Below, in pieces: positions 1 through 60,578 of a stretch of 64,000 bases of DNA. This DNA comes from Pachysolen tannophilus NRRL Y-2460 (taxonomy: Eukaryota): positions 1 to 64,000 of the forward strand of contig KV454012.1 in the NCBI GenBank assembly GCA_001661245.1. Reading direction: 5' to 3'. Position numbers and translations under genes: made by a program. Every line of letters starts with the position of its first letter. Positions within the stretch are counted from its first letter, which is position 1. The notes beneath the pieces were generated by a model. It saw only the letters and a program-made list of their open reading frames with translations, did not search any database and had not been told where the DNA came from.

Positions 1-320
1 ACTCACACCACTCACACCACTCACACCACTCACCACCACTCACACCACTCACACCACTCACACCACTCACACCACTCACACCACTCACACCACTCACACC
101 ACTCACACCACTCACACCACTCACACCACTCACACCACTCACACCACTCACACCACTCACACCACTCACACCACTCACACCACTCACACCACTCACACCA
201 CTCACACCACTCACACCACTCACACCACTCACACCACTCACACCACTCACGCCACTCACACCACTCACACCACTCACACCACTCACACCACTCACACCAC
301 TCACACCACTCACACCACTC
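1..320. repeat. Telomeric repeat tract, 9-bp unit ACTCACACC (G-rich strand GGTGTGAGT), about 35 copies
   Basis: Near-perfect tandem 9-mer from base 1 with the C-rich strand on + (expected at a left chromosome end). Two variant units: a one-C insertion (28-37) and an A>G change (251). Abrupt junction to unique sequence at ~320. Confidence 0.93.
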
Positions 321-1682: not shown

Positions 1683-2240
1683 ATGTTGAAACTTGTTCCG
1701 AGATTCTTTTCCAGTATGAGTAATGCGAATCCCAAAGATGTACTAGAGTTTTGGTTTGGAAAAGTAGGCGAACCGGGGTATTTGAAAGCAAAGTCATTTT
1801 GGTACGGTAATGAAGAAGATGATAAATTAGTTGCAGAAAAATTAGGATCATATTACGAAGAAGCTAAAAATGGAGGTCTTAGTAATTGGGCAGATATTCC
1901 CGATGGTTCAATTGCACTAATTATTTTGCTAGATCAGGTTCCTCGTAATATTTTTCGTAATAAGGCTCAAGCTTACGCTACGGATAATCTAGCATTATCT
2001 GTTGCTAAAAAAATGGTTGAGAACGGCTGGGATAAAAACCAGCCAACCGTTGTAAGACGCTATGTGTATTCTCCGTTCAACCATTCAGAAAATTTAGAAG
2101 ATCAAAAGCGTTCACTTGAGTTGTTTACGGATCTTGGAGACCCTACACATATGTACTGGGCGCGCAATTTTTATGAAACAATTAAAAAATATGGAAGGTT
2201 TCCTCATCGCGATGAAATTTTGGGTCGTAGCGGTAATTGA
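1683..2240 (+). CDS. DUF924 family protein, possibly with a mitochondrial presequence
   Basis: 185-aa ORF with DUF924 hallmarks: VLEFWFG, ALIILLDQVPRNIFR, PFNHSENLEDQ, GRFPHRxxILGR. The N-terminus MLKLVPRFFSS is basic/hydroxylated with no acidic residues. Confidence 0.88.
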   Translation: MLKLVPRFFSSMSNANPKDVLEFWFGKVGEPGYLKAKSFWYGNEEDDKLVAEKLGSYYEEAKNGGLSNWADIPDGSIALIILLDQVPRNIFRNKAQAYATDNLALSVAKKMVENGWDKNQPTVVRRYVYSPFNHSENLEDQKRSLELFTDLGDPTHMYWARNFYETIKKYGRFPHRDEILGRSGN

Positions 2241-6596: not shown

Positions 6597-8297
6597 TCAA
6601 TGTTGAACACCAAGTAATCTTCTACGTCTTTCAATCAATTTCCAGTATCTGTCCTTGGTTTTCTTTCTCCAATACAAACCAGTGAGCTCCATAACAAAGA
6701 AAGTGGAGATACAGAAGAGACAAATGAAAGCAGCAGCAACAAATGTATTTTGTAAACCTGTGTTATCAACCCATGGTGTAATTCCGTAATCCATAGCAAA
6801 ATTCATGGTATTACGTATCATTACAACAGTGGCCATAGCTTCACAGGATAACTCGTGATAGCAATCAATAACGTAAGTCACAGCGTTTACACAACCAATA
6901 ATACATAAACCTGCCATTAACCCTAAACCAAATACAACACCAAACCAATGAATACCGTGATAAGCTCCTACTCCCCATAAGATTAAAGCAAATGGGCCTA
7001 AAATCATGTAAACGACTAATGCCCAAAGTCTGTCTTCAGCATGAGATAGCCCATTACGTCTTTTAGCAAATTTAATTTTAAGCCAATCAGTAGTCCAACC
7101 AGCATAAAAATAAATTATCAATACAAATATAACAGGAGAAACATACGCTAGGCCACACATTGAACTTGAGAAATTATAAGGTGCTGCACTTAGTACAAGC
7201 GACTCAGTACCATTTAAAACCGAATACCAGAAAAGAGAGGACCCGTAAAGAAAACCTGACCACAAAACAACAGGGAATTGCAACATGTAAAAAGGACCTT
7301 TCATGTATTCCCATAATAAAAATTTAGAATGAATACCTGATGTAAGTGACAATTTTTGCCAAAAATTCTTTGGAGGCAGATATTCAATTGGTTCATCAAC
7401 TAAAATAGCTTGATTTTCTAAATGTTCATTGACTTCCATCTCCAACTCATCAAGAGTTTGGTGAGAAGTGACATTGGTAACAACAGTTGGGGATTTTACA
7501 TCGCCATTTGTTTCCGTAGAAGAAAGAACATTGCCATCAGAATCTTTCTGAACAGACAATTTTCTTTCATAATTTGTCTCTTCCATAAAGAAAAATAAAA
7601 ATACAAAACTCATACAACAAAAAATAACCGACCAATAAATAACCCATTTCCATCCACCAACTGCCAAATTTCTACTGTTTTCATTGATGAATCCTGCAAC
7701 AAGAGGAGCAATATAATTCGAACCAAAAAGAGCTACAGCATATATCCCCATATAAGTTGCTCTTTCATGTTCGAAAAACAAGTCAGAAATTGAAATTTCT
7801 GGTAAGGCTTCAATTGGAGCAGCGAAAAAACCTGCAAGAATCTTGGAAGCAATCCATTGACCATTCGTTGTAATATATGGCTGCCATAAATTAAACATTG
7901 CAACAGCAATTGTCGAAAGTAAATATACTGGTCTTTTACCATACTGTAAAGCAATAGGTTGGAAAAATAAACAACCAATACCCAAGAATAAAAACATGTA
8001 TCCTGTTCCATCATTCAAATCTGTAACACTAATGTCTACCCCTGGTGCTTCAGATATATCTGTTAAGATAGAATAGATACATGTACCTGGAACACCAACA
8101 CCAAATGTATATAAAATAATACAGAAAACGTGCATCCATTTCCTTCCTTTGGACCAGTTAAGCGGATCATTTGGATCTTCTGAAGGTGTTGGAATCAAAA
8201 CAATCTCCTTCTTCCCTTCGGCATGCTCCACTTTTGATGATAAATCTAAGTCCACCAAATGGGTAGTCCCTGGAATAGCATCATAATCAATGCCCAT
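6597..8297 (-). CDS. Major facilitator superfamily transporter (Hol1-like)
   Basis: 566 aa, about 12 hydrophobic segments. Has the LIPTPSEDPNDPLNWS N-terminal motif, YGKRPVY loop and DLFFEHERA motif typical of fungal Hol1-type MFS proteins. Confidence 0.9.
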   Translation of the reverse strand: MGIDYDAIPGTTHLVDLDLSSKVEHAEGKKEIVLIPTPSEDPNDPLNWSKGRKWMHVFCIILYTFGVGVPGTCIYSILTDISEAPGVDISVTDLNDGTGYMFLFLGIGCLFFQPIALQYGKRPVYLLSTIAVAMFNLWQPYITTNGQWIASKILAGFFAAPIEALPEISISDLFFEHERATYMGIYAVALFGSNYIAPLVAGFINENSRNLAVGGWKWVIYWSVIFCCMSFVFLFFFMEETNYERKLSVQKDSDGNVLSSTETNGDVKSPTVVTNVTSHQTLDELEMEVNEHLENQAILVDEPIEYLPPKNFWQKLSLTSGIHSKFLLWEYMKGPFYMLQFPVVLWSGFLYGSSLFWYSVLNGTESLVLSAAPYNFSSSMCGLAYVSPVIFVLIIYFYAGWTTDWLKIKFAKRRNGLSHAEDRLWALVVYMILGPFALILWGVGAYHGIHWFGVVFGLGLMAGLCIIGCVNAVTYVIDCYHELSCEAMATVVMIRNTMNFAMDYGITPWVDNTGLQNTFVAAAFICLFCISTFFVMELTGLYWRKKTKDRYWKLIERRRRLLGVQH

Positions 8298-8445
8298 ATT
8301 TAATCAAGATACTAGCTACTATTACTACTACTTTTAGTTTTTTTATCACTTTCTAATCAGTGTCTCGGTTTTTAAACAAAATGCTATTCAACTAGCTTCT
8401 TGTAAGAAATATGTACTTCTATTTATAATGAAATTAAAATCAAAA

Positions 8446-8695
8446 GATAAGATAGACGGCTCGAGAATGTTCACATCTAAACACACATAAAAATATCTCA
8501 AGCAAATATTTATCAAATTTTAATACTGGCAACCGATATTACTTGTATTAAAATTTCCTAGTATGACAGGTGTTTACTGATAACTCTTCATTGTAGAAGC
8601 TCTTATCGTGCTGACAGATATTACTTGTCATACACTATCGGACACAATCAATTACCCTTTGCGGTATCAGTCTTCGCCAAAAAATATACGATAAG
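8446..8695. promoter_or_regulatory. Cluster of GATAAG (GATA-factor / nitrogen catabolite repression-type) sites upstream of the MFS gene
   Basis: GATAAG at 8446 and 8690 and CTTATC at 8602, all within 400 bp of the ATG at 8297. Function is inferred. Confidence 0.45.
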
Positions 8696-9087
8696 AAAAG
8701 GGTTTTATTATAATAATTAATCTAGCCGCATTTGATGACTGTTTTTGGATACCACGGTCGACAATCATGATATCTTGATGAATATATGCATGAAATAAAT
8801 TGAGTATTTTTTTTTGTACCTTTACAAATAATACTTGACTATTTACAGAAAGATTGATTAGTACCTACATATCATATCAGTTGTAGAAATTGTCTCAAAA
8901 TATTTGTTCAATTAGAACAAAAAAAAAATAATAATTAAAGAATAATTTATGAATCAACCGTATTTGGGCCTAAACTCCTTTTTTTTTTCTTTTTTTTTCT
9001 TTATTATTACATTTGAAAGGAACCAAAAAATTTTTTAAAAATATTTATCAAAATGTAACTAACTAACTAAAATTTATCTTTATTTTT

Positions 9088-11333
9088 TTATAAGCACATT
9101 TTTTCCAAGGCATCCCTATCGAACAACAAATTCCATCCTGGTGCATTTTCTGAATTCAAATCGTTTCCCCAAGCCTTTTGTAAAAAATTAACGATTTGTG
9201 TCATATGTTCCCCATGAATAAGTTCACTTAACAGAAGACATCTCATCCTAATATATTCCTTATGCACAGGAAATATAGCCGCAGCACCTGCAACTACTAA
9301 GGGCCAACCACAAATTATGTAAACAAGACTATTCGGAGGTAACCTCCTTATTCCGTTATAAATCCCAGTAACATTTCTTTGAATCATCTCATCATTTTGA
9401 AGTAAATTTGGATTCACAAGTTTTGCAACCAAAATATGAGCAGCTTTGGCAACAATATCTGCTACTAGAACGCTTTCTGTAAGTTTATGATATACTTCCT
9501 TCGAATATGAGGAACTAATATTGGTAGGTAAAACTGGTGGAACATAAAACATTAAATCTTTGAATAACTTTTGAGCTAACTTCATATTCTCATGATCAAG
9601 AGGTAGTTTGAAACAAAGCCAAGAAGCTTTTGCGGCAAACTCATACGATTCCAAAGCTGCTCCAAAAACTGGATTATTCATCCAAGATACTGGACAATCA
9701 TAAATCGGATCATAAAGCATGTCTCTAAATTGATCAAAAATTTGAAATGGCGAGGGTAAAAATCCAATTTGGGATGGCTTGGAAATTAATAAATTAACAG
9801 AATAATTGTAAAGAAAACTTTCAATTAACGTTTTCTCAGTGGGTGAAAATTCTAATTTAGTTTCACCTCCTTTTGATGGCATCATACATAACCTATTCAA
9901 GTAGTTTTTAAATTTATTATCATTATCAAGAGCACCTGCTAATACTAAATTATCAGAATCTTTGAATTCTTTTTGTTCTAAACAAATTAAATCTTTTTCG
10001 CTGTAACAGTTAACCTCTTCAATACTATGAATTGGTGTAGCAATGCTCAAATTATCCTTTAAAGATTTTGACTTTGGAGGTGATTTTAAAAATGATTTTT
10101 CAAACATAATATCCCACTCAAGTTGGGAACGATTTCTAACCTTTTCGTTTTGTCTTTTTCTTATTATTTGAAATGCCATAGTTAAATGTCCAGCAGGTTT
10201 TGAAGGCACTGTTCCAAAATGCTTATCTCTAAGACAAAGTAACAATGTTGCAATTAACATCCAATCTTCAGTTCCTTCGGTTTCAGGTGCATTTATAAGA
10301 TTTGCTAATTCATTTAAACACAGAGCATATTTGTATTGGGCAAATGATTTTAACTCGGGTCTTCTCCAACTCAAGTGTGCAGCTCCGCATGCAAAGAAGA
10401 TATGTCTTAAAACCGGACTAGAAACTCCAGGAGGAACAAATATTGCACCTGGAGTTAATTTTGGGTGTGTGAGCTGAGGCGATATAGCCAGGATAAATCC
10501 ATTTATAAATGCATGGTATAAATACGCATCCTCAGTTGACAATTGTATACCTGTAATCCATGTGCTAGAACCGTTTATAATCAGTGAGTTACTGAAAAAA
10601 AACTCATTACCACATCTCTTACTATTTACCAAATCCAATCTGTTGCGATAATTGGTTTCTAAAACTAGTTTCTCTTCAACCCGAGATTTTAATCGTTCTT
10701 CATGAGAATCTCTATCGGAAGTAAAAAATCCATCTGATATAGATGAAGGAAAATTTTTTAAAGATGGAAGTATATTTTTATCAATGCTATCGCCTTTTTC
10801 CTCTTTTGGTATATCAAGTGTCGATGATCTGAAATTATCGACTGGTTCATTAATACCCGTCCGGTTATCAAAAGACTGTATAACAATATTATTGGAATCG
10901 CGATTGCTCAACACTTTTAACACCGACTGACTACTCTCCAATGGTTCAACAGTGGGTTTTTTATTGTCAATTAACTTCTTCAAAGAGCTACCATCCGCGA
11001 AACTAACCACAAATGAAAATCTTCTATTCCCGGTTTCTTTCTTGGGAACAAATTTTGAATGGTGCGGTAACGACATGTTTCCAGCATGAGGCCAGACACA
11101 TTCCAAAGATCCAGTGGAACATCTAAGGCATCTAGGTTTTTTCTCGTCACATTTTTTTTTCTTTTGACGGCCTGTAAAACGAAACCCAAAAAAACAAAAA
11201 CAAAAAAAAAATAATGTTGGTAATTGATCCAATAAAGAACTAAAAAAATTGCTGAAAAAGACTACTCACAAGTAAAACATCCATTTTTCGATCTCTGTAC
11301 CTTCAATAGATTATTAGAATTCTTGCTAGACAT
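9088..11333 (-). CDS. Zn(II)2Cys6 transcription factor; two exons (11333-11270, 11171-9088), about 715 aa
   Basis: Removing an intron at 11269-11172 (GTGAGT...TACCAAC...TTTACAG) gives MSSKN...RSKNGCFTCRQKKKKCDEKKPRCLRCSTGSLECVW, a complete six-Cys cluster. A fungal-specific TF domain follows. The ORF-track start at 11232 lies inside the intron. Confidence 0.9.
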
Positions 11334-11779
11334 CTGCTTTAGTGAGTCTGTGAAGATCAAATTGAATTCTGAATGAATGCAATTTTCAAATATTTCAAAT
11401 CAACTAGATATTTTAATAGGAACACTGAAAATGTTAAATCGCGGAATTAAGATAAGAGATTCTCAATTAGGAACATGGCATCGGCAAAGTTTACTTGATC
11501 CTGATTAAAGAGGTTGTGGCCAACCTCATGGAAGTAAAATATGATCAGCAAAGTGGACAAAATGAAACTTTTTAGATCTGGTCTGTATTAGTCTAAAAGG
11601 ACGAAGATTATTAAAAGAATATTTATATATAAATATATATATACATGTATATAGACAGCTGTAAAAACGTGCTATGTAGGATAAAGTTTTTCTAAGTTAA
11701 TTGGCTTTAAATTTTTACTTGAGCTTTTTTTGAAAACCTTCTGTCTGTCTAGGTTATAACTTTATTCTTTATTGTCAAA

Positions 11780-13450
11780 ATGTTTGGTCCTTTTGTAAAT
11801 GACACAGAGGATCCTAAGAAATTTGCTGTTTGGGAACCTAAGGTCAAAGTTTATCGCGAGGCTTTAGCTGCTGGTATTAAAGATGAGTACAAACTTCCTC
11901 AAGAATTGATTCCAAAAGATTTTGACGTAGGAGTTGATGTTACTGGAATTCCTGCTAAAGTATTAACGGAATCAGAATTGGCTATTACAGAATCTTCTGG
12001 GTGTGACTTGGTTGTAAAAATAGCTGCTGGTGAATTGAGTGCAGTTGAAGTTTTCAAAGCATTTGCAAAACGGGCAACAATTGCTCACCAATTGACGAAT
12101 TGTGCAATGCAGATATTTGTTGACGAAGGTTTAATGAGAGCTAAAGAATTAGATGCTTACTATGCTAAAACTGGTAAAACTGTTGGACCGTTACATGGAC
12201 TACCGGTGTCTTTAAAAGAGCACTATAATTATAAAGGCAAAATAACTCATAGCGGTTATGTTGGTTACATTGATAATGTTACTGAGAACTGGAGTGTAGC
12301 AGTTGAAGTATTAAAAGAAGCTGGTGCTGTGTTCTACATTAGAACAACAGAGCCCCAAAGTTTGATGCACCTTTGTTCTTATAACAATATCACTGGTGCA
12401 TGTAGGAATCCTTGGAATACATCTTTAACCCCAGGTGGTTCTTCAAGTGGTGAAGGTGCGTTAGCTGCGATGAAGGGAAGCGTTTTCGGTTTAGGCAGTG
12501 ACATTGGAGGATCCATCAGATGCCCAGCAGCTTTCTGTGGTGTGTGGGGGTTAAGACCAACACAAAAGAGATTGTCAATGCACAATGTCACTAGTTGTTG
12601 CGGAAGCAAAGTTCAAGAATCGGTTGCCTGTGTCCTTGGTCCATTGGCTCGCTCAGCTGAGGATCTTGACTTATTTATGAAAGCGTCCATAGTTTCTGAG
12701 CCTTGGAAAAAAGACGCATGTATTATTCCGCTTCCATGGAGGACTGAATCGGTACCATCACCGAAGGAATTAACTATCGCTGTTTGCTATGACGACGGAG
12801 TTGTAAAACCAACTGCACCAATTATCCGTGCATTGAAACATGCTGTCAGCAAATTAGAAGCTTCTGGTGTTAAAGTTGTAGAATGGAAGCCTATCGCCGT
12901 TCAGAAACTTGTTGAAACCTGTTCTGCAATGTATAACGCAGACGGAAATTCTTCTCAAAAGTTAGCTTTAGCAGCTTCTGGCGAACCATTAGCTCCATTG
13001 ACACATGTAGCATTATCCTTTGGTTGTGGTGATGATGGAGTCTCAGTTGAGAAAAACCAAGAGTTGAACGGCATTAGAGATCAAGGTCGTCAAGATTACC
13101 TTTCCGCTATGGACGCTCAAGGCATAGACTATATCCTCTGTCCCACTTATGTTTCTGTTGCTGCTAAACCAGATGTTATCAAGTACTGGGGCTACACAAA
13201 TCTTTGGAATATTCTTGACTACCCTAGTGTAATCTTTCCAACTGGATTAAAAGTCAATCCAGACCTTGATGTAGTTGATAAGAGTTATAAACCCCGTAAC
13301 GAATACGAAGCCTACGAACATTTCTTGTACACTGATCCAAAAGATTTTATCAACGCTCCTATTAATTTACAATTAACTGGTAGACGTTACTTTGAGGAGA
13401 AACTTATTAAAGCATCACAAGTTATTGGAGAGATTATTCTGCAAAAATAA
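11780..13450 (+). CDS. Amidase-signature family enzyme (acetamidase / general amidase type)
   Basis: 556 aa with GPLHGLPVSLKE (catalytic Lys), PGGSSSGEG and GSDIGGSIRCPA; the Ser-cisSer-Lys triad is intact. Confidence 0.93.
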   Translation: MFGPFVNDTEDPKKFAVWEPKVKVYREALAAGIKDEYKLPQELIPKDFDVGVDVTGIPAKVLTESELAITESSGCDLVVKIAAGELSAVEVFKAFAKRATIAHQLTNCAMQIFVDEGLMRAKELDAYYAKTGKTVGPLHGLPVSLKEHYNYKGKITHSGYVGYIDNVTENWSVAVEVLKEAGAVFYIRTTEPQSLMHLCSYNNITGACRNPWNTSLTPGGSSSGEGALAAMKGSVFGLGSDIGGSIRCPAAFCGVWGLRPTQKRLSMHNVTSCCGSKVQESVACVLGPLARSAEDLDLFMKASIVSEPWKKDACIIPLPWRTESVPSPKELTIAVCYDDGVVKPTAPIIRALKHAVSKLEASGVKVVEWKPIAVQKLVETCSAMYNADGNSSQKLALAASGEPLAPLTHVALSFGCGDDGVSVEKNQELNGIRDQGRQDYLSAMDAQGIDYILCPTYVSVAAKPDVIKYWGYTNLWNILDYPSVIFPTGLKVNPDLDVVDKSYKPRNEYEAYEHFLYTDPKDFINAPINLQLTGRRYFEEKLIKASQVIGEIILQK

Positions 13451-13830
13451 AAAAATTTCTATATTTGTTTCTCGCTCGATCAATATAAATATCAGCGATA
13501 TGCAGGTATGATAATTTTGCATTTATTTTCTGTATGTATTTTTGAAAGCGCCACATCTAAAAATGTTTCAAGGCAGATCTTCTAGATGCATATGAAAGAA
13601 ACTACTTTGACCACAATTTTCAATTATCAATTCTCTTTGGCTCATATTACTTTCAAAGCTGAGAATAATAGGAAGTTGGCATTCATCTGAATTATGTTTT
13701 GACGTAGCAGTTTATATATAATAGTTCTTTGTTTTCTTGTTTTTTAATCTTTTTTTTTTCTTTTAGAAATGGAATAATTCATAAATCTCTTATATTTGAT
13801 CTCTCATATTCTTCTGGAAATCCTAGAAAA

Positions 13831-15906
13831 ATGACTTCAAGTGTTCAAATTTTAGATCAAGGTGTAGGCTATGGTATCTTAGTTGGAGTTGGAGCTCTAT
13901 TTGCAACCTTCATTGCAGTTATTACAAAGTTAATGAATAGGTATTTGCATGAGAATTCAAATTCTACTGAAATGTTTATGGTTGCAAATAGATCTGTTGG
14001 AATTGGTTTAACAGGTTCAGCTGTTCTATCGTCCTGGTTATGGGCAACCGTGATTTTATGGTCTGTTGTTATGGTGTACAACTATGGTATTGGTTCAGCC
14101 TATTTGTATGCGGCTACATCTTCTGTTCAAATTGCAATATTGACTGTAATTGGTATTGAAGCAAAATTGAAGATTCCGCATGCACACACTTCATTGGAAA
14201 TAATTCAATTAAGATATGGTAAATATACACATATTTTGTATATCTTTTTATGTTTGGTGAATAATTTACTTTCTTGTGCATCTATGATTTTGGGTGCTTC
14301 AAGTGCGATTGTTGCAATGTGTGGCATACATGTGGTCGCAGCTAATTTATTATTACCATTTGGTGTGATATGTTATACAGTTGTTGGTGGTTTGAAATCA
14401 ACTTTTTTAACCGATTATATTCATACTGTCATTGCCTTAATTGTATTTATTTATTTTGCTACAGCAGCTCTTACCAATGAAGAAATTGGGGGTATTGGAA
14501 GCTTGTACAGAAAAGTCAGAGATTGGGAATTGGAAAATAACCATAATATAAGTGGTAATTATGAAGGCTCGCTATTGACAATGAAATCACAAGGTGCTTG
14601 GTTTTTTGGTTTAATTCATAGCATTGGTGATACTGGATTATCAGTTATGGATTCATCTTTTTGGCAAAAAGCATATTCCGCAGACGTGAATGCCATGGTC
14701 CCAGGTTATATAATTGGATCTCTTACAATTTATGCTTGTGCTTGGCCTATAGGAACTATATTCGGATTAATTGCTGTGATATTGGAAGATACAAGTATCT
14801 TTCCTACTTACCCTAACAAGATGACTACTGATGACATAGATAGTGGCTACGTTATTATCTATACATTAAAAGCATTATTAGGGAAAAATGCAGTTGCTGC
14901 ATTGCTGTTGTGTATTTTCTTGGCTGCAACTTCCACAGTTTCAGCTCAAACAATTTCTGTTAGTAGTATCATCAGCTTTGATATTTACAGAACCTATATC
15001 AATCCAAAGGCAACAGATAAACAATTGATTGCTATTTCACATTTTGGGGTTATTTTTTTCGGTTTATTTTGCGCAGGGTTCTCAATCATGTTGAACTATG
15101 TTGGAGTCAATATTACCTGGATGGGTTATTTTTATTCTATGGTTATCTGTCCTGGTGTTATTCCATTGATTGCTTCTATTATCTGGAAAGATCAAAATTT
15201 ACCTGGAGTTTTTATTTCTCCAATTATCGGTATGGGTGCAGGTTTAGGTGTTTGGCTAGGAACTGCTAAAAAAATGTACGGAGCTTTGAATTTAGATACC
15301 ACAGTAGAACAATTACCATGTTTATATGGAAGTTTGACGGCATTGTTCTTACCTGGAATTTTGACTGTAATTATCAGTTTGGTTAAACCAGCAAATTTTG
15401 ATTGGAATATATTAAAGAAAGCAACACTAGTGGAAGATAATGATCAATTTTCAGAGAACCCAGAAAATTCATCTTCAGGTCAATCAGATTTTGAAAACCC
15501 AGATTTTGAAAAACAAGACTCTGATGTCTCAAAACAGCCTTTAGCTCATGTTGGATCTGTTTCCGCTGTAGAAGAAAATAGTGATGTTGGTACTTGTGAA
15601 TCACAAGGCGATGAAGATGATTACACTTTGAAAGAGAAAGAAAAAAAGAAGTTGAAAAAAATGATTCGCATTGCTTGGATTTATTGTATCGCAAATATAT
15701 TAATTACTCAAGTTGTATGGCCATTGCCATTATATAGAGACTATATTTTTACTGAATCTTTTTTTAAAGGTTGGGTCGGAGTATCTGTTGCTGTTATTTA
15801 TGCTAGTTTTATTGTTGTTGGTATTTATCCATTATGGGATGGTAGAAATGCGATTAAAAAAGTTATTTTCGGAGTTTACAGAGATTTATCTAAAAAGAAA
15901 GTTTAG
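13831..15906 (+). CDS. Dur3-like urea/polyamine transporter (solute:sodium symporter family)
   Basis: First ATG at 13831, 691 aa. Motifs LDQGVGYGILVG, EMFMVANRSVG.GL, VVGGLKSTFLTDYIHT, GNYEGSLLTMKS, SFDIYRTYINPKAT. A divergent paralogue; orthology to DUR3 is not established. Confidence 0.88.
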   Translation: MTSSVQILDQGVGYGILVGVGALFATFIAVITKLMNRYLHENSNSTEMFMVANRSVGIGLTGSAVLSSWLWATVILWSVVMVYNYGIGSAYLYAATSSVQIAILTVIGIEAKLKIPHAHTSLEIIQLRYGKYTHILYIFLCLVNNLLSCASMILGASSAIVAMCGIHVVAANLLLPFGVICYTVVGGLKSTFLTDYIHTVIALIVFIYFATAALTNEEIGGIGSLYRKVRDWELENNHNISGNYEGSLLTMKSQGAWFFGLIHSIGDTGLSVMDSSFWQKAYSADVNAMVPGYIIGSLTIYACAWPIGTIFGLIAVILEDTSIFPTYPNKMTTDDIDSGYVIIYTLKALLGKNAVAALLLCIFLAATSTVSAQTISVSSIISFDIYRTYINPKATDKQLIAISHFGVIFFGLFCAGFSIMLNYVGVNITWMGYFYSMVICPGVIPLIASIIWKDQNLPGVFISPIIGMGAGLGVWLGTAKKMYGALNLDTTVEQLPCLYGSLTALFLPGILTVIISLVKPANFDWNILKKATLVEDNDQFSENPENSSSGQSDFENPDFEKQDSDVSKQPLAHVGSVSAVEENSDVGTCESQGDEDDYTLKEKEKKKLKKMIRIAWIYCIANILITQVVWPLPLYRDYIFTESFFKGWVGVSVAVIYASFIVVGIYPLWDGRNAIKKVIFGVYRDLSKKKV

Positions 15907-16024
15907 TTTTAAAGAAATATGTTTAATTGATTTTCTAATTTTTAATATCATATCATACATTTTATCAAATAGGGGAAACAAAATAATAATTTCTAATTAA
16001 AAACTATATACTATAAACCACGAA

Positions 16025-17290
16025 TCAAGATATAGCTAAAGAGTTTTGGGAAAACTTTAAGTGCTCCTTGTCACTTTGGTGCCATCTTTCATTATACCTT
16101 CCATAAATTAAAACAGGAGTAGGTTCTTCAACAGGAGCAGAGTACAACTTGGCTTTACCAAAAAATCTGTCCTTATCAGAATCCCATTGACCAAAAGTAA
16201 TTTTTTCCCACTCTTTTGGTTTATTGTAACCTAGTCTTTTCAATTTTGGTGAATCAAGAGTTTCGGGATCAATAACAGTATATGGCGCCGGATCAGCAAA
16301 ATATATAAGGCCCAACCTCCTATGATTCTGTTGATCTTGCGGTGGCTTAACAACTCTGTGAATGGTAGATTTAAAATATGCTCCAGTTAAAAATTCGAGA
16401 GCATCTCCGACATTGCATACATAGGCATTTTCCATGTAATCAACATATTTCCAGTCACCAGTATAATAATCTCTTAGTTGTAAAGATGTCATTGGCTGTG
16501 AATAGATAAATGTGAAAGCAGTCGAATCTGAATGACCTCTTAACCAAGTATTCTTGGTTTTCTTTTCATCTTCTGATGACATACCATAATACATCATGAA
16601 TCGACCCCAACCAAATCCAGATCTTTCGATATCGCCTTCTCTAATTTTAAAAAAGTTTTCCCATAAAGTTCCTTCTGGTATTTCTAAAATAATATCACAT
16701 AAGATAGTCAACTTTCTTAGCAATTCATTATGTATATAATCATAATAAGTAATTATAGAATCCAAGTTAGCAGTAACAATTTCAGGTTGTTTATGTTTTT
16801 TCAATTCTTCCGGTTGTAGCAAATCTCTCAAGTTATAATGACAAATTGCATCTCTAACCCCAGATTGCATACCCCAATAACCTTTTGGTTTATAGCCGTT
16901 TCCTCTTTCACCACCCATATACTTGTCTCTATCTTCTTCATCTGTAGTCTTCGCACCGGCATAATATTGAATTTTTTCTTCCTCTGGAATCTCCATAACT
17001 GATTGAGCAATTGCATGTAATTTTTCATTTAAAGATTTTTCTATTCCATGACCAGTTAAGTAGAAAAAACCATAAGTTCTAATTGATTTTTCCAATTGAT
17101 CTGCCAACTTCTTCCTGGATTCAAAATTTTCACTTCCATCTTTAAATTGACTAATATCCAAGCTATCAACCTTAACTGTAGGGATATTCTCTTTAGTTGG
17201 CTTAACGTGAACAAATGGGCGAACGTTATATTTTTCGTTCACTTTTCTTTGATACTCTTCATCAATGTATGGAATCTTAGTAATTGTCAT
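16025..17290 (-). CDS. 2-oxoglutarate/Fe(II)-dependent dioxygenase (IPNS/DIOX_N-type)
   Basis: First ATG at 17290, 421 aa. DIOX_N-like LDIS...YGFFYLTGHGI; Fe ligands H-S-D (LRGHSDS) and distal H (STIHRVV); CNVGDALE; 2OG-binding Arg in RRLGLIYF. Confidence 0.88.
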   Translation of the reverse strand: MTITKIPYIDEEYQRKVNEKYNVRPFVHVKPTKENIPTVKVDSLDISQFKDGSENFESRKKLADQLEKSIRTYGFFYLTGHGIEKSLNEKLHAIAQSVMEIPEEEKIQYYAGAKTTDEEDRDKYMGGERGNGYKPKGYWGMQSGVRDAICHYNLRDLLQPEELKKHKQPEIVTANLDSIITYYDYIHNELLRKLTILCDIILEIPEGTLWENFFKIREGDIERSGFGWGRFMMYYGMSSEDEKKTKNTWLRGHSDSTAFTFIYSQPMTSLQLRDYYTGDWKYVDYMENAYVCNVGDALEFLTGAYFKSTIHRVVKPPQDQQNHRRLGLIYFADPAPYTVIDPETLDSPKLKRLGYNKPKEWEKITFGQWDSDKDRFFGKAKLYSAPVEEPTPVLIYGRYNERWHQSDKEHLKFSQNSLAIS

Positions 17291-18628
17291 TGTTTTTTTT
17301 ACTTTTATAAATATATTAATTCCATCAAAAATTGGAAGCAATAATCTTGAAGATCTTGATTTTCATTCCCCGAAACAGTTCTCTCCATTGCTCATTATAT
17401 ATATGGTGAATATGGTACAATGATATGTTAAAAAAATACTACAGCAGTTTGATGTCAACTGTGGCTTTCCTATTTGAAATTGTGGATGGACAACTATTTT
17501 TTTTAAAAGTCTTGAGAGACTCAGTTGGCAAAGACATTATATAAAAGAACTAAATTATCTCATAATTTATTATTCAAGATGATTCTATTATCGTACGTTA
17601 AATGCTGGTGTAAGTAGCTTCATATCAACATCTACACCATCATGGTGAGAGATGGATTGTGAGTATTTTTTGATTTTTTCATTTTTTTCATTTTTTTGTT
17701 TTTTTCCTGTTCTCAAATTGAGAATTCTGCAGATTAGCCGACTAGCCTAGATTCAATAGAAAATAGTCGATACGCTAAAGTGATTGATAAAGCTCTTACT
17801 TGGGTCATAGAGATTAATTGAGTCTTTAGAGATATATTGCATGAAATATATATTTAAAAAAAATCAAGTAAGAAATCATATGGCAATTTCTTCTTCTTCA
17901 TTTCTCTATTCAATTTTTTATCGCAAAGATATGAATTGGATAGATCAACTTTTTGAAATTGAAGAATCTTTTTTTTTTTTATATATTATTGTATTTGCTT
18001 TTGTTTGCTAGCTTGAGAGGGAAACAAGCATTCAAGTTTTATTCTGTAATCACAAGAAATCAAATGGTAAATGGTGCGTCTTTGATGCAATACAGAGTTT
18101 ACCACAATTAAATTTTTGTTTTGATAAAAGAATCTTCTCGCAGAATTACCTTTTTTTTTATTTTCTTTTTTTGGCAAGATTACCAATACTCTGAAAAGTT
18201 TCAACTTATTCATTCTTCTTCCACAATTACTTTCAAGAAATGATTGGTATCTTTTTACTGAAATCTACTATACTATATCTCCATTGAAATAATACTTTAT
18301 ATTTTTCAAAAAATCAGTTTAACTTCAGCCGCACATACTAAACTATTGCATATGCAACAATTTGTACAGTTTCCATACATGAAAATTTCACGCCTTGACT
18401 AATAAATGAGTATTAAAGAATGAAATAACGTTTTGAAACAAGCTATTTAGTTGGAATTTTGTATACTATTTTAGTAACTAGAATTCGAAAAAAAAAAAAA
18501 TAGAAACTAGTTACAATTAAAATTTTACTCTTAACCGTGCCAAAAATGTACCAAAAATTTGTCTCTTATCATCGAGCTCATATTCAAAAAAACCTCTACT
18601 CGTTCTCTGTGAAACTCTTTGACCTGGA

Positions 18629-38019: not shown

Positions 38020-39513
38020 ATGACTTCAAACCCAATTAAGAAAGATTCACCAATTATTGTTGTTGGTGCTGGTGTCTTTGGGCTTTCTAATGCACTACAC
38101 TTGGCTCAAAATGGTTATACTAATATAACTGTTTTTGATAGACTTGATTTTGATTCAAATAACTATACTCTATTGAAAGGTGCTGATACTGCATCGGCAG
38201 ATATTAATAAGATTTTCAGAATTCAATATGCGGATAAGATCCATTATCAAAGGTTAGCTATGGAAGCAGGTGAAATTTGGGAAAAATGGGATAGAGATAT
38301 TAAATTGTTACCTGAAGAAGAAGCTAAAAAATATACTGCCTTAACTATCTTGGATAGATGTGGAATGTTAAGATTAGATGATATTGAGGGAAATTCTAAA
38401 GAAGAAAATCAAAATTTAGCAAGTTTCGAAAAAGATGGATTAAGATCACTTCAATTTGATGCAAATAATCCTCTGGATGTTAAGAGAGCAAATGCAACCG
38501 GTTGGGGTTATAAATTAGATCCAATTGGTTTGAAAGATAATAAGATTTTAAAAGTTAAAAGCAGAGTCTTAGATTCAACTTCTGGAGTACTTTATGCCTC
38601 GAGGGCATGTCAGTATGCTAAATATTTATGTACACAATTAGGCGTTAAATTTGTATTGGGTGGTGATAAAGGTACATTCAAAGAATTTATTATGAAAGCA
38701 AACTCTGATGAAGTTCAAGGAATCGTGACCAAGGATGGTCAAACACATTTTGCAAATTTAGTCGTTGTTGCTTGTGGTCCGTGGTCTACTTCTCTAGTTC
38801 CTGAATTGGACGGTTTAAGTGCTGCTAACTCGGGTAACGTTGTAATATTCAAAGTTCCAAAACATAGAAAAGACTTGTATGAAAAATATAGTTCAAGAAA
38901 TTTTCCTGCTGTAGCTTGGAAGCTGGGTCATTCTAGAGAGAAAGAATATTTGGGTGGGATTTTCATGTTCCCGCTTATGGAACCAGAAGGTTATTTAAAA
39001 GTAATTATTAGACAAACGAAGTATACTAACCCAGTTCAAGTAAATGATAGAACTGTATCTATTCCGAAGACAATTAATTCTAGTCCACCAGCTTCTTATC
39101 TAACTAAAAATATTTTGAACCAAGTTAAAGAATTTTTAACCATTTTCTTTCCTGACTTGGTAGAAGCTGATATTAAATTACAAAGTAGATTGTTATGGTA
39201 TACAGATACAATAAATAATGACTATATTTATGATTTTGTTCCAGGAAAGAAAAACTTATTTGTTGCTACTGGTGGTTCAGGTCATGCTTTCAAGATGTTA
39301 CCTGTGTTGGGCCAATTTTTGGTTGATAAAATCGAAGGAAGAGAAAACTTGTATACAAAACTATTCAAATGGAGAGACCAAAAACAATTCGATCATGATC
39401 CAAACGGTTTAAGAGAAAATCTGAATGGTCCAAGGGTTTATTGCAACCAAGATTTATCCACTGAAAAAGATCTTTGCTTCGAACAATCTGAACAATTAAA
39501 ACACAAGTTATGA
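38020..39513 (+). CDS. FAD-dependent amino-acid oxidase (sarcosine/pipecolate/fructosyl-amino acid oxidase family), copy 1, with peroxisomal PTS1-like -HKL
   Basis: First in-frame ATG at 38020, 497 aa. IIVVGAGVFGLS Rossmann motif, ASADINKIFR, VVACGPWS, ATGGSGHAFKMLPVLG; C-terminus LKHKL. Confidence 0.88.
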   Translation: MTSNPIKKDSPIIVVGAGVFGLSNALHLAQNGYTNITVFDRLDFDSNNYTLLKGADTASADINKIFRIQYADKIHYQRLAMEAGEIWEKWDRDIKLLPEEEAKKYTALTILDRCGMLRLDDIEGNSKEENQNLASFEKDGLRSLQFDANNPLDVKRANATGWGYKLDPIGLKDNKILKVKSRVLDSTSGVLYASRACQYAKYLCTQLGVKFVLGGDKGTFKEFIMKANSDEVQGIVTKDGQTHFANLVVVACGPWSTSLVPELDGLSAANSGNVVIFKVPKHRKDLYEKYSSRNFPAVAWKLGHSREKEYLGGIFMFPLMEPEGYLKVIIRQTKYTNPVQVNDRTVSIPKTINSSPPASYLTKNILNQVKEFLTIFFPDLVEADIKLQSRLLWYTDTINNDYIYDFVPGKKNLFVATGGSGHAFKMLPVLGQFLVDKIEGRENLYTKLFKWRDQKQFDHDPNGLRENLNGPRVYCNQDLSTEKDLCFEQSEQLKHKL

Positions 39514-39988
39514 GCCTTGGTTCAAGATTGATATTTCTATTAGTTTCTATTATTTTCTTCTTCTTCTTTTTTTTTCTTTTTTTTCTTTTTTCATTTCACC
39601 TCACATCTTAATTACTTTTCTGTTATATCTTAGATAGAGATAAAAAAATAAAATCAGATCACTTCTTCTTTCAAGTTGTACATTATATTATTATTATCTT
39701 CTTCTCGTTTTGCTACTTCTTCTTCTTCTGCACCTTCGAAGCTTACCTCTAATATCCGGACTTTCCTCTTCAGGAAGTACATACGAATGCATTGCATATT
39801 TAACGTATCACTTGCCTTATTAGTGTAAGATGTTATATCATATATCAAGTGCAATCAATATTTGAAGTTTTATTTCAAAATGAGCCAGGAGGTTTCCTTT
39901 ATAAGCAGACGATATTTCCTGCTGGTTTCTAGATGAGTAAGTAACAGTTGTAAAGTATTTGAAAGAAAAAAAAAAAGAGTTGGTTAAA

Positions 39989-41503
39989 ATGAGCAAAAAC
40001 AGCCTTTACGATAAAAATTCCAAGATTATAATAATTGGTGCTGGTGTATTTGGTCTTTCCAACGCATTGAATTTAGCCCAAAATGGTTATAAAGATATAA
40101 CTGTTTTTGATCGTTTAGATATGGAACTGAACAAGTTTTCCTTATTAAATGGAGCAGACACTGCTTCTGCGGATATCAACAAGATATTTAGAGTTCAGTA
40201 TGCAAACAAAATGCATTATCAACAGTTGGCATTAGAAGCTGGTGAGATTTGGGAACAATGGGATCGTGATGTTAGATTGGTGCCTGATCGTGAAGCCAAA
40301 AAGTATACAGCGTTAAAAATTTTGGATAGGTGTGGTCTTTTAAGATTAGATGATATCCCTGGTAATTCCACTGAAGAAAAACTGAATGTGGAAAGTTTTA
40401 CTAAAGATGGTTTGAGAGACGTATTATTTGATATCAATGACGAGGATGATATTAAAAGAGCAAAAGCTAGTGGTTGGGGAAACAAGATCAATCCTTTGAA
40501 ATTAAAGGAAAGGGGTAAAGTTGAAAATTTAAGTGGAATTTTGTATTCGACTTCAGGTATTCTCTATGCTTCAAGAGCTTGTCAGTATGCAAAATATTTA
40601 TGTGTACAATTAGGTGTTAAATTTATCTTAGGTGGTAATAAAGGTACTTTCCAAGATTTCATTACATCAGAAAAAGATAGGAATGAAATTCTTGGTGTGG
40701 TTTGCAAAGACGGCACCAAACATTTTGCTGATTTAACTGTCATCGCATGTGGACCTTGGTCTACCTCTTTAGTTCCAGAGTTAGATGGAATCAATGAAGG
40801 TACTACTGGAAGCGTAGTGATTTTCAAAATCCCCGATGGAAGAAAAGATTTGTATGAAAAATACAGCCCAAGAAATTTTCCAATTATTAGCTGGAAAGGT
40901 GGGCATTCTAGAGAAAAAGAATACCTCGGTGGTTTATATTTATTTCCTGCAATGGAACCAGAAGGTGTTATGAAGATGATTATCAGACAAAAGAAATACA
41001 CTAATCCAGTAAAGTTAGAAAATAATAGAATTGTCTCTATTCCTAAAACAGTCAATTCAAATCCTCCAACTACAAAAGTTACAAAGCACATTTTAGATCA
41101 AGCAAAATCATTTTTGACCGTAATTGCTCCAGATTTAGTCGAAGCAGGTATAAAATTGGAAAGCAGAATTATTTGGTATACCGATACTATAAATAACGAT
41201 TATATTTATGATTTTGTTCCGGGAAAGAAAAACTTGTTCGTTTCCTGTGGAGGTTCTGGTCATGCTTTCAAAATGCTTCCAGTATTGGGTAAGTTTTTAG
41301 TAGATAAAATTGAAAGGAGAGAAAATTTCTACACAAACCTATTCAAATGGAGAAACCCAAAGGACTTCACAAAAGATCCAAATGGGTTGAAAGAAGGAAT
41401 TACGGGTCCTAGAGTGTACGATAAACAATCCTTACCTTCTGATGACGATTATAAATTTCAAGATATTGAAAAGAAAGTCAAAAACCTAAAACTTTATCAA
41501 TGA
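39989..41503 (+). CDS. FAD-dependent amino-acid oxidase, tandem paralogue (copy 2)
   Basis: First ATG at 39989, 504 aa. Colinear with copy 1, sharing long identical blocks (GADTASADINKIFR, LYASRACQYAKYLC, WYTDTINNDYIYDFVPGKKNLFV); ends NLKLYQ. Confidence 0.88.
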   Translation: MSKNSLYDKNSKIIIIGAGVFGLSNALNLAQNGYKDITVFDRLDMELNKFSLLNGADTASADINKIFRVQYANKMHYQQLALEAGEIWEQWDRDVRLVPDREAKKYTALKILDRCGLLRLDDIPGNSTEEKLNVESFTKDGLRDVLFDINDEDDIKRAKASGWGNKINPLKLKERGKVENLSGILYSTSGILYASRACQYAKYLCVQLGVKFILGGNKGTFQDFITSEKDRNEILGVVCKDGTKHFADLTVIACGPWSTSLVPELDGINEGTTGSVVIFKIPDGRKDLYEKYSPRNFPIISWKGGHSREKEYLGGLYLFPAMEPEGVMKMIIRQKKYTNPVKLENNRIVSIPKTVNSNPPTTKVTKHILDQAKSFLTVIAPDLVEAGIKLESRIIWYTDTINNDYIYDFVPGKKNLFVSCGGSGHAFKMLPVLGKFLVDKIERRENFYTNLFKWRNPKDFTKDPNGLKEGITGPRVYDKQSLPSDDDYKFQDIEKKVKNLKLYQ

Positions 41504-59693: not shown

Positions 59694-60578
59694 TCAAGAA
59701 TTAACCAGTGCCTCGATATCTTCTTTTGTACTTGTTGGTCTAATAGCACCAGGCATAAACCAAGGTTTTATGATGAAATAGCTATTTGAGTCATCAGCCA
59801 TACCAGCAAAAGCGTTATAAAAGCCTAATAGACCAGCTAAAAAGCAAAAAGCACCACCAGCTTTACTAACGTTTGTATTACCAGTATAAGTACCAATATC
59901 CAACAATAGGATAAAGAACCAAATGTCGAAAAATAACAAGAATAAAGCCCAAGTGGATTTAAAAGTACAAAGCCAAATTAAGATACCAAAAATAACATAA
60001 GCAGACAAGAATAAACCCATTGCACTATCAAATTCATCAGTAGTTGTATAAGCTGATTGTATTCCAAAAGCATCAGTTAATATAGCACCATAAGAGGTCC
60101 AAAATCCGAAAAAAATTAATAAAACTGTACCTGCCCAAGTATTTTCAACAATAAGGCACCAAATACCAGCAATACCTTCAACAATACCAGCAGAAAAGAA
60201 AAAAGCACCAACTAAAATAGATGGATTAGAAACACTTCTAGCACCTGCATCAATTAAACCCAAGGTAAAACAAGCCAATGAAAAAGCACATAAACCAGCA
60301 GGAACTGGATTACCAAATTTTCTTTCTGGAATAGTTTGAAGACCAGGATTTAAATTACCACCAAACGCATACATAAAATCATCTTTATTGATTGGAACAT
60401 CATTAATATAAATATTATGTTTATCATGATAAAATCTAGTTGCAGTACTATTCAGTCTTTCAGTTGTATGATCAGTAATCTTTTCAGTACTATTACCAGG
60501 ACTTAATTGATTATTGATATCATTTGGACCACCTGGGGAAATATTATTAGTATAAGCTGTTGCGGCGTCGTCAGACAT
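59694..60578 (-). CDS. Gpr1/Fun34/YaaH (ATO/Ady2) acetate/ammonium transporter, copy A
   Basis: 294 aa with YAFGGNLNPG, FGNPVPAGL, VENTW, FGFW, GFYNAFAG; six TM segments. Confidence 0.92.
   Translation of the reverse strand: MSDDAATAYTNNISPGGPNDINNQLSPGNSTEKITDHTTERLNSTATRFYHDKHNIYINDVPINKDDFMYAFGGNLNPGLQTIPERKFGNPVPAGLCAFSLACFTLGLIDAGARSVSNPSILVGAFFFSAGIVEGIAGIWCLIVENTWAGTVLLIFFGFWTSYGAILTDAFGIQSAYTTTDEFDSAMGLFLSAYVIFGILIWLCTFKSTWALFLLFFDIWFFILLLDIGTYTGNTNVSKAGGAFCFLAGLLGFYNAFAGMADDSNSYFIIKPWFMPGAIRPTSTKEDIEALVNS

What the first reader, a model, noticed from the sequence alone, without database searches (positions are those of the whole stretch)
6597..17290. Subtelomeric five-gene catabolic cluster: MFS + Zn2Cys6 regulator + amidase + Dur3-like symporter + 2OG-Fe(II) dioxygenase
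Seen: five consecutive genes with no housekeeping gene between them; the regulator and amidase share a 446-bp divergent promoter; catalytic residues are intact; GATAAG sites lie upstream of the MFS gene (three) and in the TF/amidase promoter (11451). Known: yeast nitrogen-scavenging clusters such as DAL and NAG/nitrate clusters combine permeases with enzymes, often with a dedicated regulator. Inference: this is a self-contained uptake -> oxidative (hydroxylation/N-dealkylation) -> amide hydrolysis pathway for an unidentified nitrogenous substrate (amide, substituted urea, or amine/polyamine derivative). I do not recognise it as a described pathway, and it is the best candidate for a new system in this window.
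Basis: partly seen in the sequence, partly recalled or inferred. Interest (0 to 1): 0.8.

Follow-up and report, generated by a model that had tools for sequence, protein, structure and literature searches.

The report
Sulfur-scavenging pair beside an amidase unit
Five intact genes at a yeast chromosome end look less like one nitrogen pathway than like two neighbours: a regulator-plus-amidase pair that many yeasts share, and a transporter plus an oxygenase of unknown substrate that probably help the cell get sulfur when it is starved of it.

Summary
The five genes, the 446-bp divergent promoter, the catalytic residues and the GATAAG sites are as described. The single nitrogen pathway is not supported. 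Only regulator + amidase travel together elsewhere (12 of 22 regulator relatives share a contig with an amidase hit); the dioxygenase does not travel with them. The right half points to sulfur. The dioxygenase promoter holds AACTGTGGCT, the Met32 motif; of 14 other intergenic AACTGTGGC[TG] sites in this genome, 8 lie before sulfur genes. Its Candida albicans relative (49% identical) rises about 500-fold in sulfur starvation, depends on Met32 and is bound by it; the C. parapsilosis relative depends on Met4. The symporter falls in the DUR7/32/35 clade, all induced by sulfur starvation in C. albicans, not in the urea-transporter clade; its promoter has a Met32-like site and no GATAAG. Best reading: an amide-scavenging unit (MFS probably nitrogen-controlled) beside two sulfur-starvation genes, the dioxygenase probably cleaving carbon-sulfur bonds with an IPNS-type rather than TauD-type fold. 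A joint pathway for a compound with both amide and sulfur is not excluded. No substrate or expression was shown for this locus.

The parts
1..320 (.). Telomeric repeat (ACTCACACC)n; the five genes start 6.3 kb inside
   Evidence: same repeat at left ends of C5, C6, C8
6597..8297 (-). MFS transporter, 566 aa (HOL1-like by recall); closest paralogue in G000 (35-37%) is divergent from an Amidohydro_3 gene
8446..8695 (.). Three GATAAG sites in the MFS promoter (8446+, 8602-, 8690+); no TGTGGC
9088..11171 (-). Regulator exon 2 (rest of Zn2Cys6 motif, Fungal_trans_2 domain)
11172..11269 (-). 98-nt intron GTGAGT...TACAG splitting the zinc cluster
   Evidence: spliced product has the length of record P0121; no RNA evidence
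11270..11333 (-). Regulator exon 1
11334..11779 (.). 446-bp divergent promoter: one GATAAG (11451), one weak Met32-like GTTGTGGCC (11515), two CGG triplets
11780..13450 (+). Amidase-signature enzyme, 556 aa, K146/S221/S245; nearest solved structure C. albicans amidase 6KVR (E 8e-159)
13550..13555 (-). Met32-like site (AGATGTGGCGC) about 280 bp before the symporter; this promoter has no GATAAG and no CGG
   Evidence: compare C. albicans DUR4 site AAATGTGGCGT
13831..15906 (+). Sodium:solute symporter, 691 aa, DUR7/32/35 clade (clade IV), 37% to the genome's DUR3-type gene
16025..17290 (-). Fe(II)/2-oxoglutarate dioxygenase, 421 aa, IPNS/ANS/T7H fold class; family of C. albicans orf19.1366
17457..17466 (+). 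AACTGTGGCT, full match to the Met32 motif, 167 bp before the dioxygenase start
   Evidence: motif AAYTGTGGCT from PMC13170222

Best explanation
Two units sit side by side in a subtelomere. Left: a Zn2Cys6 regulator and an amidase that yeasts keep together; the regulator probably switches the amidase on when its amide substrate is present, the amidase frees ammonia or an amine, and the GATA-rich MFS gene probably imports an amide or amine under nitrogen limitation (linkage shown; regulation, substrate and the MFS's membership inferred). Right: two genes of the sulfur-starvation (Met4/Met32) regulon. The DUR7-clade symporter, a urea-transporter paralogue, probably imports a small organosulfur compound; the dioxygenase probably hydroxylates the carbon next to sulfur so that the C-S (or C-O-S) bond breaks to an aldehyde plus sulfite, sulfate or a sulfinate/thiol, as TauD/Jlp1 do, but on an IPNS-type scaffold (clade, motifs and induction of relatives shown; chemistry and substrate inferred; that the symporter feeds this dioxygenase I put at about 0.4).
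For: Linkage: 12 of 22 regulator relatives share a longest-contig length with one of 119 listed amidase hits, three with locus tags (Priceomyces 5031/5032, Ogataea polymorpha 2408/2409, O. philodendri amidase and regulator merged in one model); G000 has a second divergent regulator+amidase pair with an aldehyde dehydrogenase. Only 1 of 22 regulator and 2 amidase contig lengths recur among 119 dioxygenase rows, all on contigs over 1.3 Mb, the tagged case 60 genes apart. Motif: TGTGGC in 3 of 25 intergenic regions of the window, all three in this cluster, against 5 of 74 elsewhere. Of 26 AACTGTGGC[TG] sites in G000, 10 are inside ORFs, 2 precede dioxygenases of this family, and 8 of the other 14 precede sulfur genes (sulfate permease, MUP-like permease, MDE1-, MRI1-, CYS3-, JLP1-like, gamma-glutamyltranspeptidase, a Met32-like zinc finger) (gene names by Pfam plus recall). 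7 of 8 ascomycete relatives with upstream DNA have TGTGGC before the dioxygenase (two are one species). C. albicans orf19.1366 (49% identical, same 58-row clade, SH-aLRT 100): log2FC 9.1, 9.7, 2.0 in sulfur starvation, -5.0 in met32, Met32 peak. C. parapsilosis CPAR2_407220: 4.8, lost in met4. Neighbours of relatives: SOX1-type monooxygenase, SEO1-like MFS, FMO. Symporter groups (98) with a paralogue and a Komagataella protein listed in clade IV of a published tree; C. albicans DUR7/32/35 rise log2FC 5.5-7.7 and carry the motif, while DUR3 falls; the paralogue is divergent from the genome's only luciferase-like monooxygenase, 63% to SOX1. C. albicans HOL1/HOL4 are flat in sulfur starvation. 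The amidase is not sulfur-poor (4.1% Cys+Met against 0.2-1.5% for five JLP1-like proteins).
Against: No expression or binding data for this locus. The motif was chosen after seeing the sequence; the symporter and amidase sites are 6-7-base cores, not full matches. The window dioxygenase is a paralogue, not the orthologue, of orf19.1366 (the C8 copy is nearer), and the C8 copy's promoter has no TGTGG. It is not sulfur-poor (2.85% Cys+Met; family median 1.9%). C. parapsilosis clade-IV gene CPAR2_801110 was not induced in wild type (0.47, p 0.75) and CPAR2_700990 is not in the list. Symporter and dioxygenase are not neighbours in C. albicans or Komagataella, and 0 of 14 metagenome loci had a Dur3-like gene within the flank held. 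The amidase promoter also has TGTGGC, as does that of the second regulator+amidase pair, and a C. albicans amidase, orf19.5169, rises 1.7-3.1 log2 in sulfur starvation, which blurs the split. MFS linkage to regulator+amidase outside G000 was not tested.
Confidence: 0.6

Rival explanations
1. One joint pathway for a compound that holds both an amide and sulfur (for example an N-acyl-taurine, an N-acetyl-S-alkyl-cysteine, a sulfonamide or sulfamate derivative): two transporters import it, the amidase removes the acyl group, the dioxygenase frees the sulfur, under mixed GATA and Met32 control.
For: TGTGGC in the amidase, symporter and dioxygenase promoters and nowhere else among 25 intergenic regions of the window; rough joint chance 1e-4, post hoc. 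C. albicans amidase orf19.5169 is induced by sulfur starvation and has a weak Met32 peak. One metagenome locus (L076) holds dioxygenase + SEO1-like MFS + an amidase with a full Met32 site between the last two.
Against: The dioxygenase does not share small contigs with amidase or regulator hits; the L076 amidase is of another clade (35%); orf19.5169 induction does not need Met32 (-0.3, p 0.25) and I could not tell whether it is the C. albicans amidase nearest to this one; the amidase is Cys-rich; no GC-containing word of 7 or more bases is shared by all four promoters, and the symporter promoter has no CGG.
Confidence: 0.18
2. One reading: a self-contained nitrogen-scavenging pathway (uptake, oxidative dealkylation, amide hydrolysis) under the local regulator and GATA factors.
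For: Three GATAAG sites before the MFS (P about 0.006), like the nitrogen genes of this genome (3 each before DUR3, lamAB, formamidase and PYD3 symporter loci). Other Dur3 paralogues of G000 sit beside nitrogen-catabolic enzymes.
Against: No GATAAG before symporter or dioxygenase; both belong to sulfur-induced clades; the symporter is outside the clades that hold the nitrogen-linked paralogues; five-gene linkage not seen elsewhere.
Confidence: 0.08
3. Apart from regulator + amidase, the genes are unrelated arrivals in a subtelomere; the Met32-like sites of this copy are relics or chance, and the dioxygenase has drifted to another job (for example detoxifying a plant compound).
For: All five left contig ends examined carry such arrays; transporter-dioxygenase neighbours differ at every paralogous locus; the window enzyme forms its own three-row clade and is not sulfur-poor.
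Against: A full 10-base motif 167 bp before the start, of a kind that marks sulfur genes at 8 of 14 other intergenic sites; G000 pairs this dioxygenase family with a Dur-type symporter twice, with symporters only 28% alike.
Confidence: 0.14

Closest known systems
Candida Met4/Met32 organosulfur regulon: orf19.1366 / CPAR2_407220 dioxygenase, SOX1, DUR4/7/32/35 (PMC13170222, PMC11502921)
   Same: Same dioxygenase clade (49-50% identity), same symporter clade as DUR7/32/35, same promoter motif.
   Different: In Candida the dioxygenase lies beside SOX1 and the DUR genes are on other chromosomes; here symporter and dioxygenase are neighbours and SOX1 lies beside the symporter's paralogue. No substrate was found in print for any of them.
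TauD / Jlp1 / AtsK sulfonate and sulfate-ester dioxygenases (PF02668)
   Same: Fe(II)/2-oxoglutarate chemistry, sulfur-starvation control; the proposed model for the reaction (PMC5857272).
   Different: The window enzyme is PF14226 + PF03171, with no TauD hit and an IPNS/ANS/T7H fold. PMC11502921 lists CPAR2_407220 with the dioxygenases it describes as PF02668.
Plant AOP2 (PF14226 + PF03171)
   Same: Same Pfam pair; converts methylsulfinyl into alkenyl glucosinolates, so this scaffold can break a C-S bond (PMC9992552, passages).
   Different: Biosynthetic, plant; no sequence comparison with AOP2 was made here.
Dur3 urea/polyamine transporter and the DAL-type nitrogen clusters
   Same: SSF family; permease beside enzyme.
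   Different: 37% to the DUR3-type gene of G000, another clade; no GATAAG; C. albicans DUR3 falls in sulfur starvation while this clade rises.
Fungal amidase-signature enzymes (C. albicans 6KVR, 8WV2; A. nidulans AmdS with regulator AmdR, recalled)
   Same: Ser-cisSer-Lys triad, full-length match to 6KVR; a Fungal_trans_2 regulator controlling an amidase recalls AmdR/AmdS.
   Different: Natural substrate unknown; AmdR and AmdS were not compared by sequence here; the linked regulator+amidase pair was not found described.

Membership tests
Conserved five-gene cluster | The five families recur as neighbours in other genomes | tested here: not met
   Only regulator+amidase recur (12 of 22). 0 of 14 dioxygenase loci hold the symporter, MFS or regulator (many flanks short). 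MFS relatives were not searched.
Conserved five-gene cluster | Co-expression and control by the local regulator | not testable with these tools
   No RNA holder listed.
Nitrogen-catabolite-repressed (GATA) cluster | Clustered GATAAG in each promoter | tested here: not met
   MFS 3, regulator/amidase 1, symporter 0, dioxygenase 0 in 800 bp.
Met4/Met32 sulfur regulon | Met32 motif in the promoter | tested here: met
   Dioxygenase: full AACTGTGGCT. Symporter: core ATGTGGCG only. Amidase: weak core. MFS: none.
Met4/Met32 sulfur regulon | Induction by sulfur starvation, dependent on Met32/Met4 | not testable with these tools
   Shown only for Candida relatives, with one clade-IV exception.
DUR7/32/35 clade (clade IV of PMC5997356) | Groups with clade IV members | tested here: met
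   SH-aLRT 98 with the C3 paralogue (record ODV96343.1) and P0321 (cluster of ANZ73839.1); both are listed under clade IV in the text of S5 Fig (labels read, branches not seen). C. albicans sequences were not in my tree.
Dur3 urea transporter (clade I) | Groups with DUR3 | tested here: not met
   37% identity, separate clade.
TauD/Jlp1 dioxygenase | PF02668 domain | tested here: not met
IPNS/ANS-type 2OG dioxygenase | DIOX_N + 2OG-FeII_Oxy, HxD...H triad, 2OG-binding Arg, fold | tested here: met
   pLDDT 91.9; best matches 16-23% identity; the usual RxS reads R325-L-G
IPNS/ANS-type 2OG dioxygenase | Substrate and reaction | not testable with these tools
   No characterised close relative; no structure above 23% identity.
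Amidase signature family | Ser-cisSer-Lys triad and signature | tested here: met
Zn2Cys6 regulator | Six-cysteine cluster | tested here: met
   after splicing; record P0121 carries PF00172

The most novel reading that the evidence does not exclude
The orf19.1366-type enzymes are a second, non-TauD family of fungal desulfurising dioxygenases, fed by urea-transporter paralogues (DUR4, DUR7/32/35) that have switched to organosulfur cargo; at this locus the pair, perhaps with the amidase, is a compact route for a sulfur source whose fungal enzyme is still missing (sulfoxides, sulfate esters without a sulfatase, sulfamates or N-acylated sulfur compounds).
Probability: 0.3. Interest if true: 0.72.

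Novelty: new variant of a known kind. Interest (0 to 1): 0.45.

Why it matters
A 2018 review (PMC5857272, passages) names Jlp1 as the only verified fungal enzyme that desulfurises aliphatic sulfonates and says the sulfamate enzyme is unidentified. Two Candida studies list this dioxygenase family and the DUR4/7/32/35 'urea transporters' among the strongest sulfur-starvation genes without a function. A locus where one such symporter and one such enzyme are neighbours, in a harmless yeast, gives a direct two-gene test of what they carry and cleave. The conserved regulator+amidase pair is a separate, smaller lead. As a five-gene nitrogen system the finding does not hold up.

Tried and rejected
Earlier findings of the scan could not be consulted. 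RNA runs: no RNA holder listed, so no reads were laid. A shared site for the local regulator: no GC-containing word of 7-9 bases common to all four promoters; TCGGCAA is shared by the two regulator/amidase promoters only, one word among many chance matches. CUG reading from alignments: inconclusive (one position aligns with Leu in 7 of 9 rows, the others are variable); record P0121 reads CUG as Ala; each gene has 0-4 such codons, none at a catalytic residue. Genome-wide count of AAYTGTGGCK is barely above the reversed control (53 against 43): the signal lies in where the AAC- sites fall, not in their number; the 27 AAT- sites were not examined. Fold and atlas searches gave the family only. NCBIfam gave no family over its cut-off for amidase, symporter, MFS or dioxygenase. 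The careful dioxygenase tree did not finish; all three trees are quick trees with SH-aLRT only. Literature searches that found no description of the cluster or of the enzyme's activity: 0 papers; 0; only an open-access library was searched. Horizontal transfer was not tested; GC of the five genes (0.34-0.40) is near that of neighbours. No complex was predicted, since no binding is claimed.
Full report
Observation. The window is the left end of contig C2 of G000, starting with a telomeric repeat. Two of its proteins' identical or near-identical public records are labelled Pachysolen tannophilus (P0121; P0571). The regulator needs a 98-nt intron to complete its zinc cluster; the spliced protein has 715 aa like record P0121. 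The 446-bp gap, the amidase triad K146/S221/S245 and the dioxygenase triad H253/D255/H311 with R325 are present. Runs of transporter and catabolic genes are the rule at the five other left contig ends examined, so adjacency alone says little.

What travels together. Regulator relatives: 22 rows besides the window's own. Amidase relatives: the best 119 of 968 were listed. Dioxygenase relatives: 119 of 135 listed. G000 itself has a second divergent regulator+amidase pair with an aldehyde dehydrogenase 80 kb further in. The dioxygenase shares a contig length with 1 regulator row and 2 amidase rows, all over 1.3 Mb, 60 locus tags apart where tags exist. In 14 metagenome loci around dioxygenase relatives, none had a hit to the window's MFS, regulator or symporter; 1 had an amidase of another clade; 3 (two species) had a luciferase-like monooxygenase and 2 a SEO1-like MFS (SEO1 label recalled). 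Relatives of the MFS were not searched outside G000. So regulator+amidase is a conserved unit and the five-gene set is not shown to be.

Promoters. GATAAG: MFS 3, regulator/amidase 1, symporter 0, dioxygenase 0 in the proximal 800 bp; nitrogen-type loci of G000 have 2-3; background 0.45/kb. TGTGGC, the core of the Met31/32 site (recalled, then confirmed as AAYTGTGGCT in PMC13170222), occurs in 3 of 25 intergenic regions of the window: before amidase, symporter and dioxygenase. Background: 5 of 74 regions from 20 stretches that I picked at round coordinates. It precedes 5 of 10 TauD-family genes (three of the five without it look like carnitine or xanthine enzymes, by recall). Of 53 AAYTGTGGCK matches in G000 I examined the 26 that begin AAC: 10 inside ORFs, 2 before dioxygenases of this family, and 8 of the remaining 14 before sulfur genes, among them a Met32-like zinc-finger gene; 6 precede other genes. 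The motif therefore marks the sulfur regulon in this genome, and the dioxygenase has a full copy. The motif was chosen after seeing the sequence; the symporter and amidase sites are cores only.

The dioxygenase. AlphaFold model pLDDT 91.9; fold of the IPNS/anthocyanidin synthase/thymine hydroxylase class at 16-23% identity; not TauD. It lies in a 58-row fungal clade (SH-aLRT 100, quick tree, 65 rows) with the C. albicans protein of locus L072, 49% identical. That protein is orf19.1366: its neighbour clusters with C2_09860C/SOX1 and the promoter motifs with their flanks match the paper's table up to strain differences. In PMC13170222 (seen: passages, sections 6, 7, 12, rows of supplement 2, which is cut in storage) it rises log2 9.1, 9.7 and 2.0 against three sulfur sources, falls 5.0 in met32 and has a Met32 peak. 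In PMC11502921 (seen: passages, first part of section 9, supplement rows, part 2 of 3 of supplement 1) the C. parapsilosis orthologue rises 4.8 and needs Met4. Seven of 8 ascomycete loci with upstream DNA carry TGTGGC. Against: the window copy is a paralogue in its own three-row clade, the nearer C8 copy lacks the motif, and it is not depleted of Cys+Met. Invariant basic residues beyond the cofactor ligands (K134, R230, R251, K373) would suit an anionic substrate; this is inference, I did not inspect the pocket.

The symporter. G000 has seven Dur3-like genes. The window's groups with the C3 paralogue (53-56%) and a Komagataella protein, apart from the DUR3-type gene and from those beside lamAB, formamidase and PYD3 (35 rows, 28 of them picked from 150 hits). 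The paralogue's record and the K. pastoris member are listed under clade IV (DUR7/32/35) in S5 Fig of PMC5997356 (seen: passages and the figure's text, part 1 of 2). All three C. albicans clade-IV genes and DUR4 rise log2 5.5-7.7 and carry the motif; DUR3 falls. In C. parapsilosis DUR4 rises 3.9, but one clade-IV gene does not and the other is not listed. The C3 paralogue is divergent from the only luciferase-like monooxygenase of G000, 63% to SOX1, next to an FMO; the C8 dioxygenase is divergent from another Dur-type symporter only 28% alike.

The left unit. The amidase matches C. albicans structure 6KVR over its length and is 60-75% identical to amidases of Priceomyces, Ogataea, Brettanomyces, Kuraishia and Metschnikowia. 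It has 4.1% Cys+Met, unlike the sulfur-poor JLP1-like proteins. The MFS promoter is GATA-rich, as is that of its nearest paralogue, which faces an amidohydrolase gene; C. albicans HOL1 and HOL4 do not respond to sulfur (the HOL label is recalled). One of two C. albicans amidases does rise in sulfur starvation, without needing Met32; which of the two is nearer to this one I could not determine.

Mechanism. Shown: gene anatomy, regulator-amidase linkage, clade membership, motifs, behaviour of Candida relatives. Inferred: under sulfur limitation Met32/Met4 turn on symporter and dioxygenase; the symporter imports a small organosulfur compound; the enzyme hydroxylates the carbon beside sulfur and the product falls apart, as described for Jlp1 and AtsK (PMC5857272, passages); plant AOP2 shows that this Pfam pair can break a C-S bond (PMC9992552, passages). 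Separately the regulator induces the amidase and the MFS imports its substrate. Confidence 0.6; joint amide-and-sulfur pathway 0.18; unrelated arrivals 0.14; nitrogen-only pathway 0.08.

Novelty. The sulfur response of these families is in print as expression tables; ten searches of an open-access library found no substrate, no description of this cluster and none of the regulator+amidase pair; subscription papers and closed supplements may hold more. PMC5534208 (first third read) and PMC5857272 leave the sulfamate enzyme open; nothing here ties this locus to sulfamate beyond possibility. Verdict: real genes, wrong nutrient and probably two units; a new variant of known scavenging modules with a testable orphan enzyme. 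Interest 0.45.

Noticed in passing
window 1683-2240 (+): DUF924 gene next to the telomere; Pfam calls the family bacterial and the nearest atlas clusters are 89-100% bacterial. Possible transfer from bacteria; no tree was made.
   Followed up: partly
G000:C2:94183-101014 (L030): Second regulator + amidase pair, divergent, with an aldehyde dehydrogenase behind the regulator; its promoter has one TGTGGC and one GATAAG.
   Followed up: partly
G000:C3:1339526-1347077 (L034): Clade-IV symporter, SOX1-type monooxygenase, zinc-binding dehydrogenase and FMO in two divergent pairs, three TGTGGC sites: a cleaner candidate for an organosulfur cluster than the window's.
   Followed up: partly
G000:C8:1291-15761 (L011, L012): Subtelomeric run: SDR, Dur-type symporter, orf19.1366-type dioxygenase, Zn2Cys6 regulator, MFS, D-glutamate cyclase, copper amine oxidase.
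   Followed up: partly
G000:C5:1031-5576 (L013): Dioxygenase paralogue divergent from a SEO1-like MFS across a full Met32 site, followed by an Asp/Glu-racemase-like gene; the dioxygenase-MFS pair recurs in L073.
   Followed up: partly
G000:C1:7025-14683, C3:8793-13484, C5:1047095-1053566: Dur3 paralogues each beside a different small-amide enzyme (lamA/lamB-like, formamidase, PYD3-like M20 hydrolase), all with GATA-rich promoters.
   Followed up: no
window 38020-41503 and 59694-63163: Tandem duplicates: two FAD amine oxidases (sarcosine/fructosylamine oxidase-like) and two GPR1/FUN34/ATO transporters.
   Followed up: no
G000:C3:1-60 (L043): Terminal repeat reads ACACCTCTC, one base off the ACTCACACC of C2, C5, C6 and C8.
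   Followed up: no
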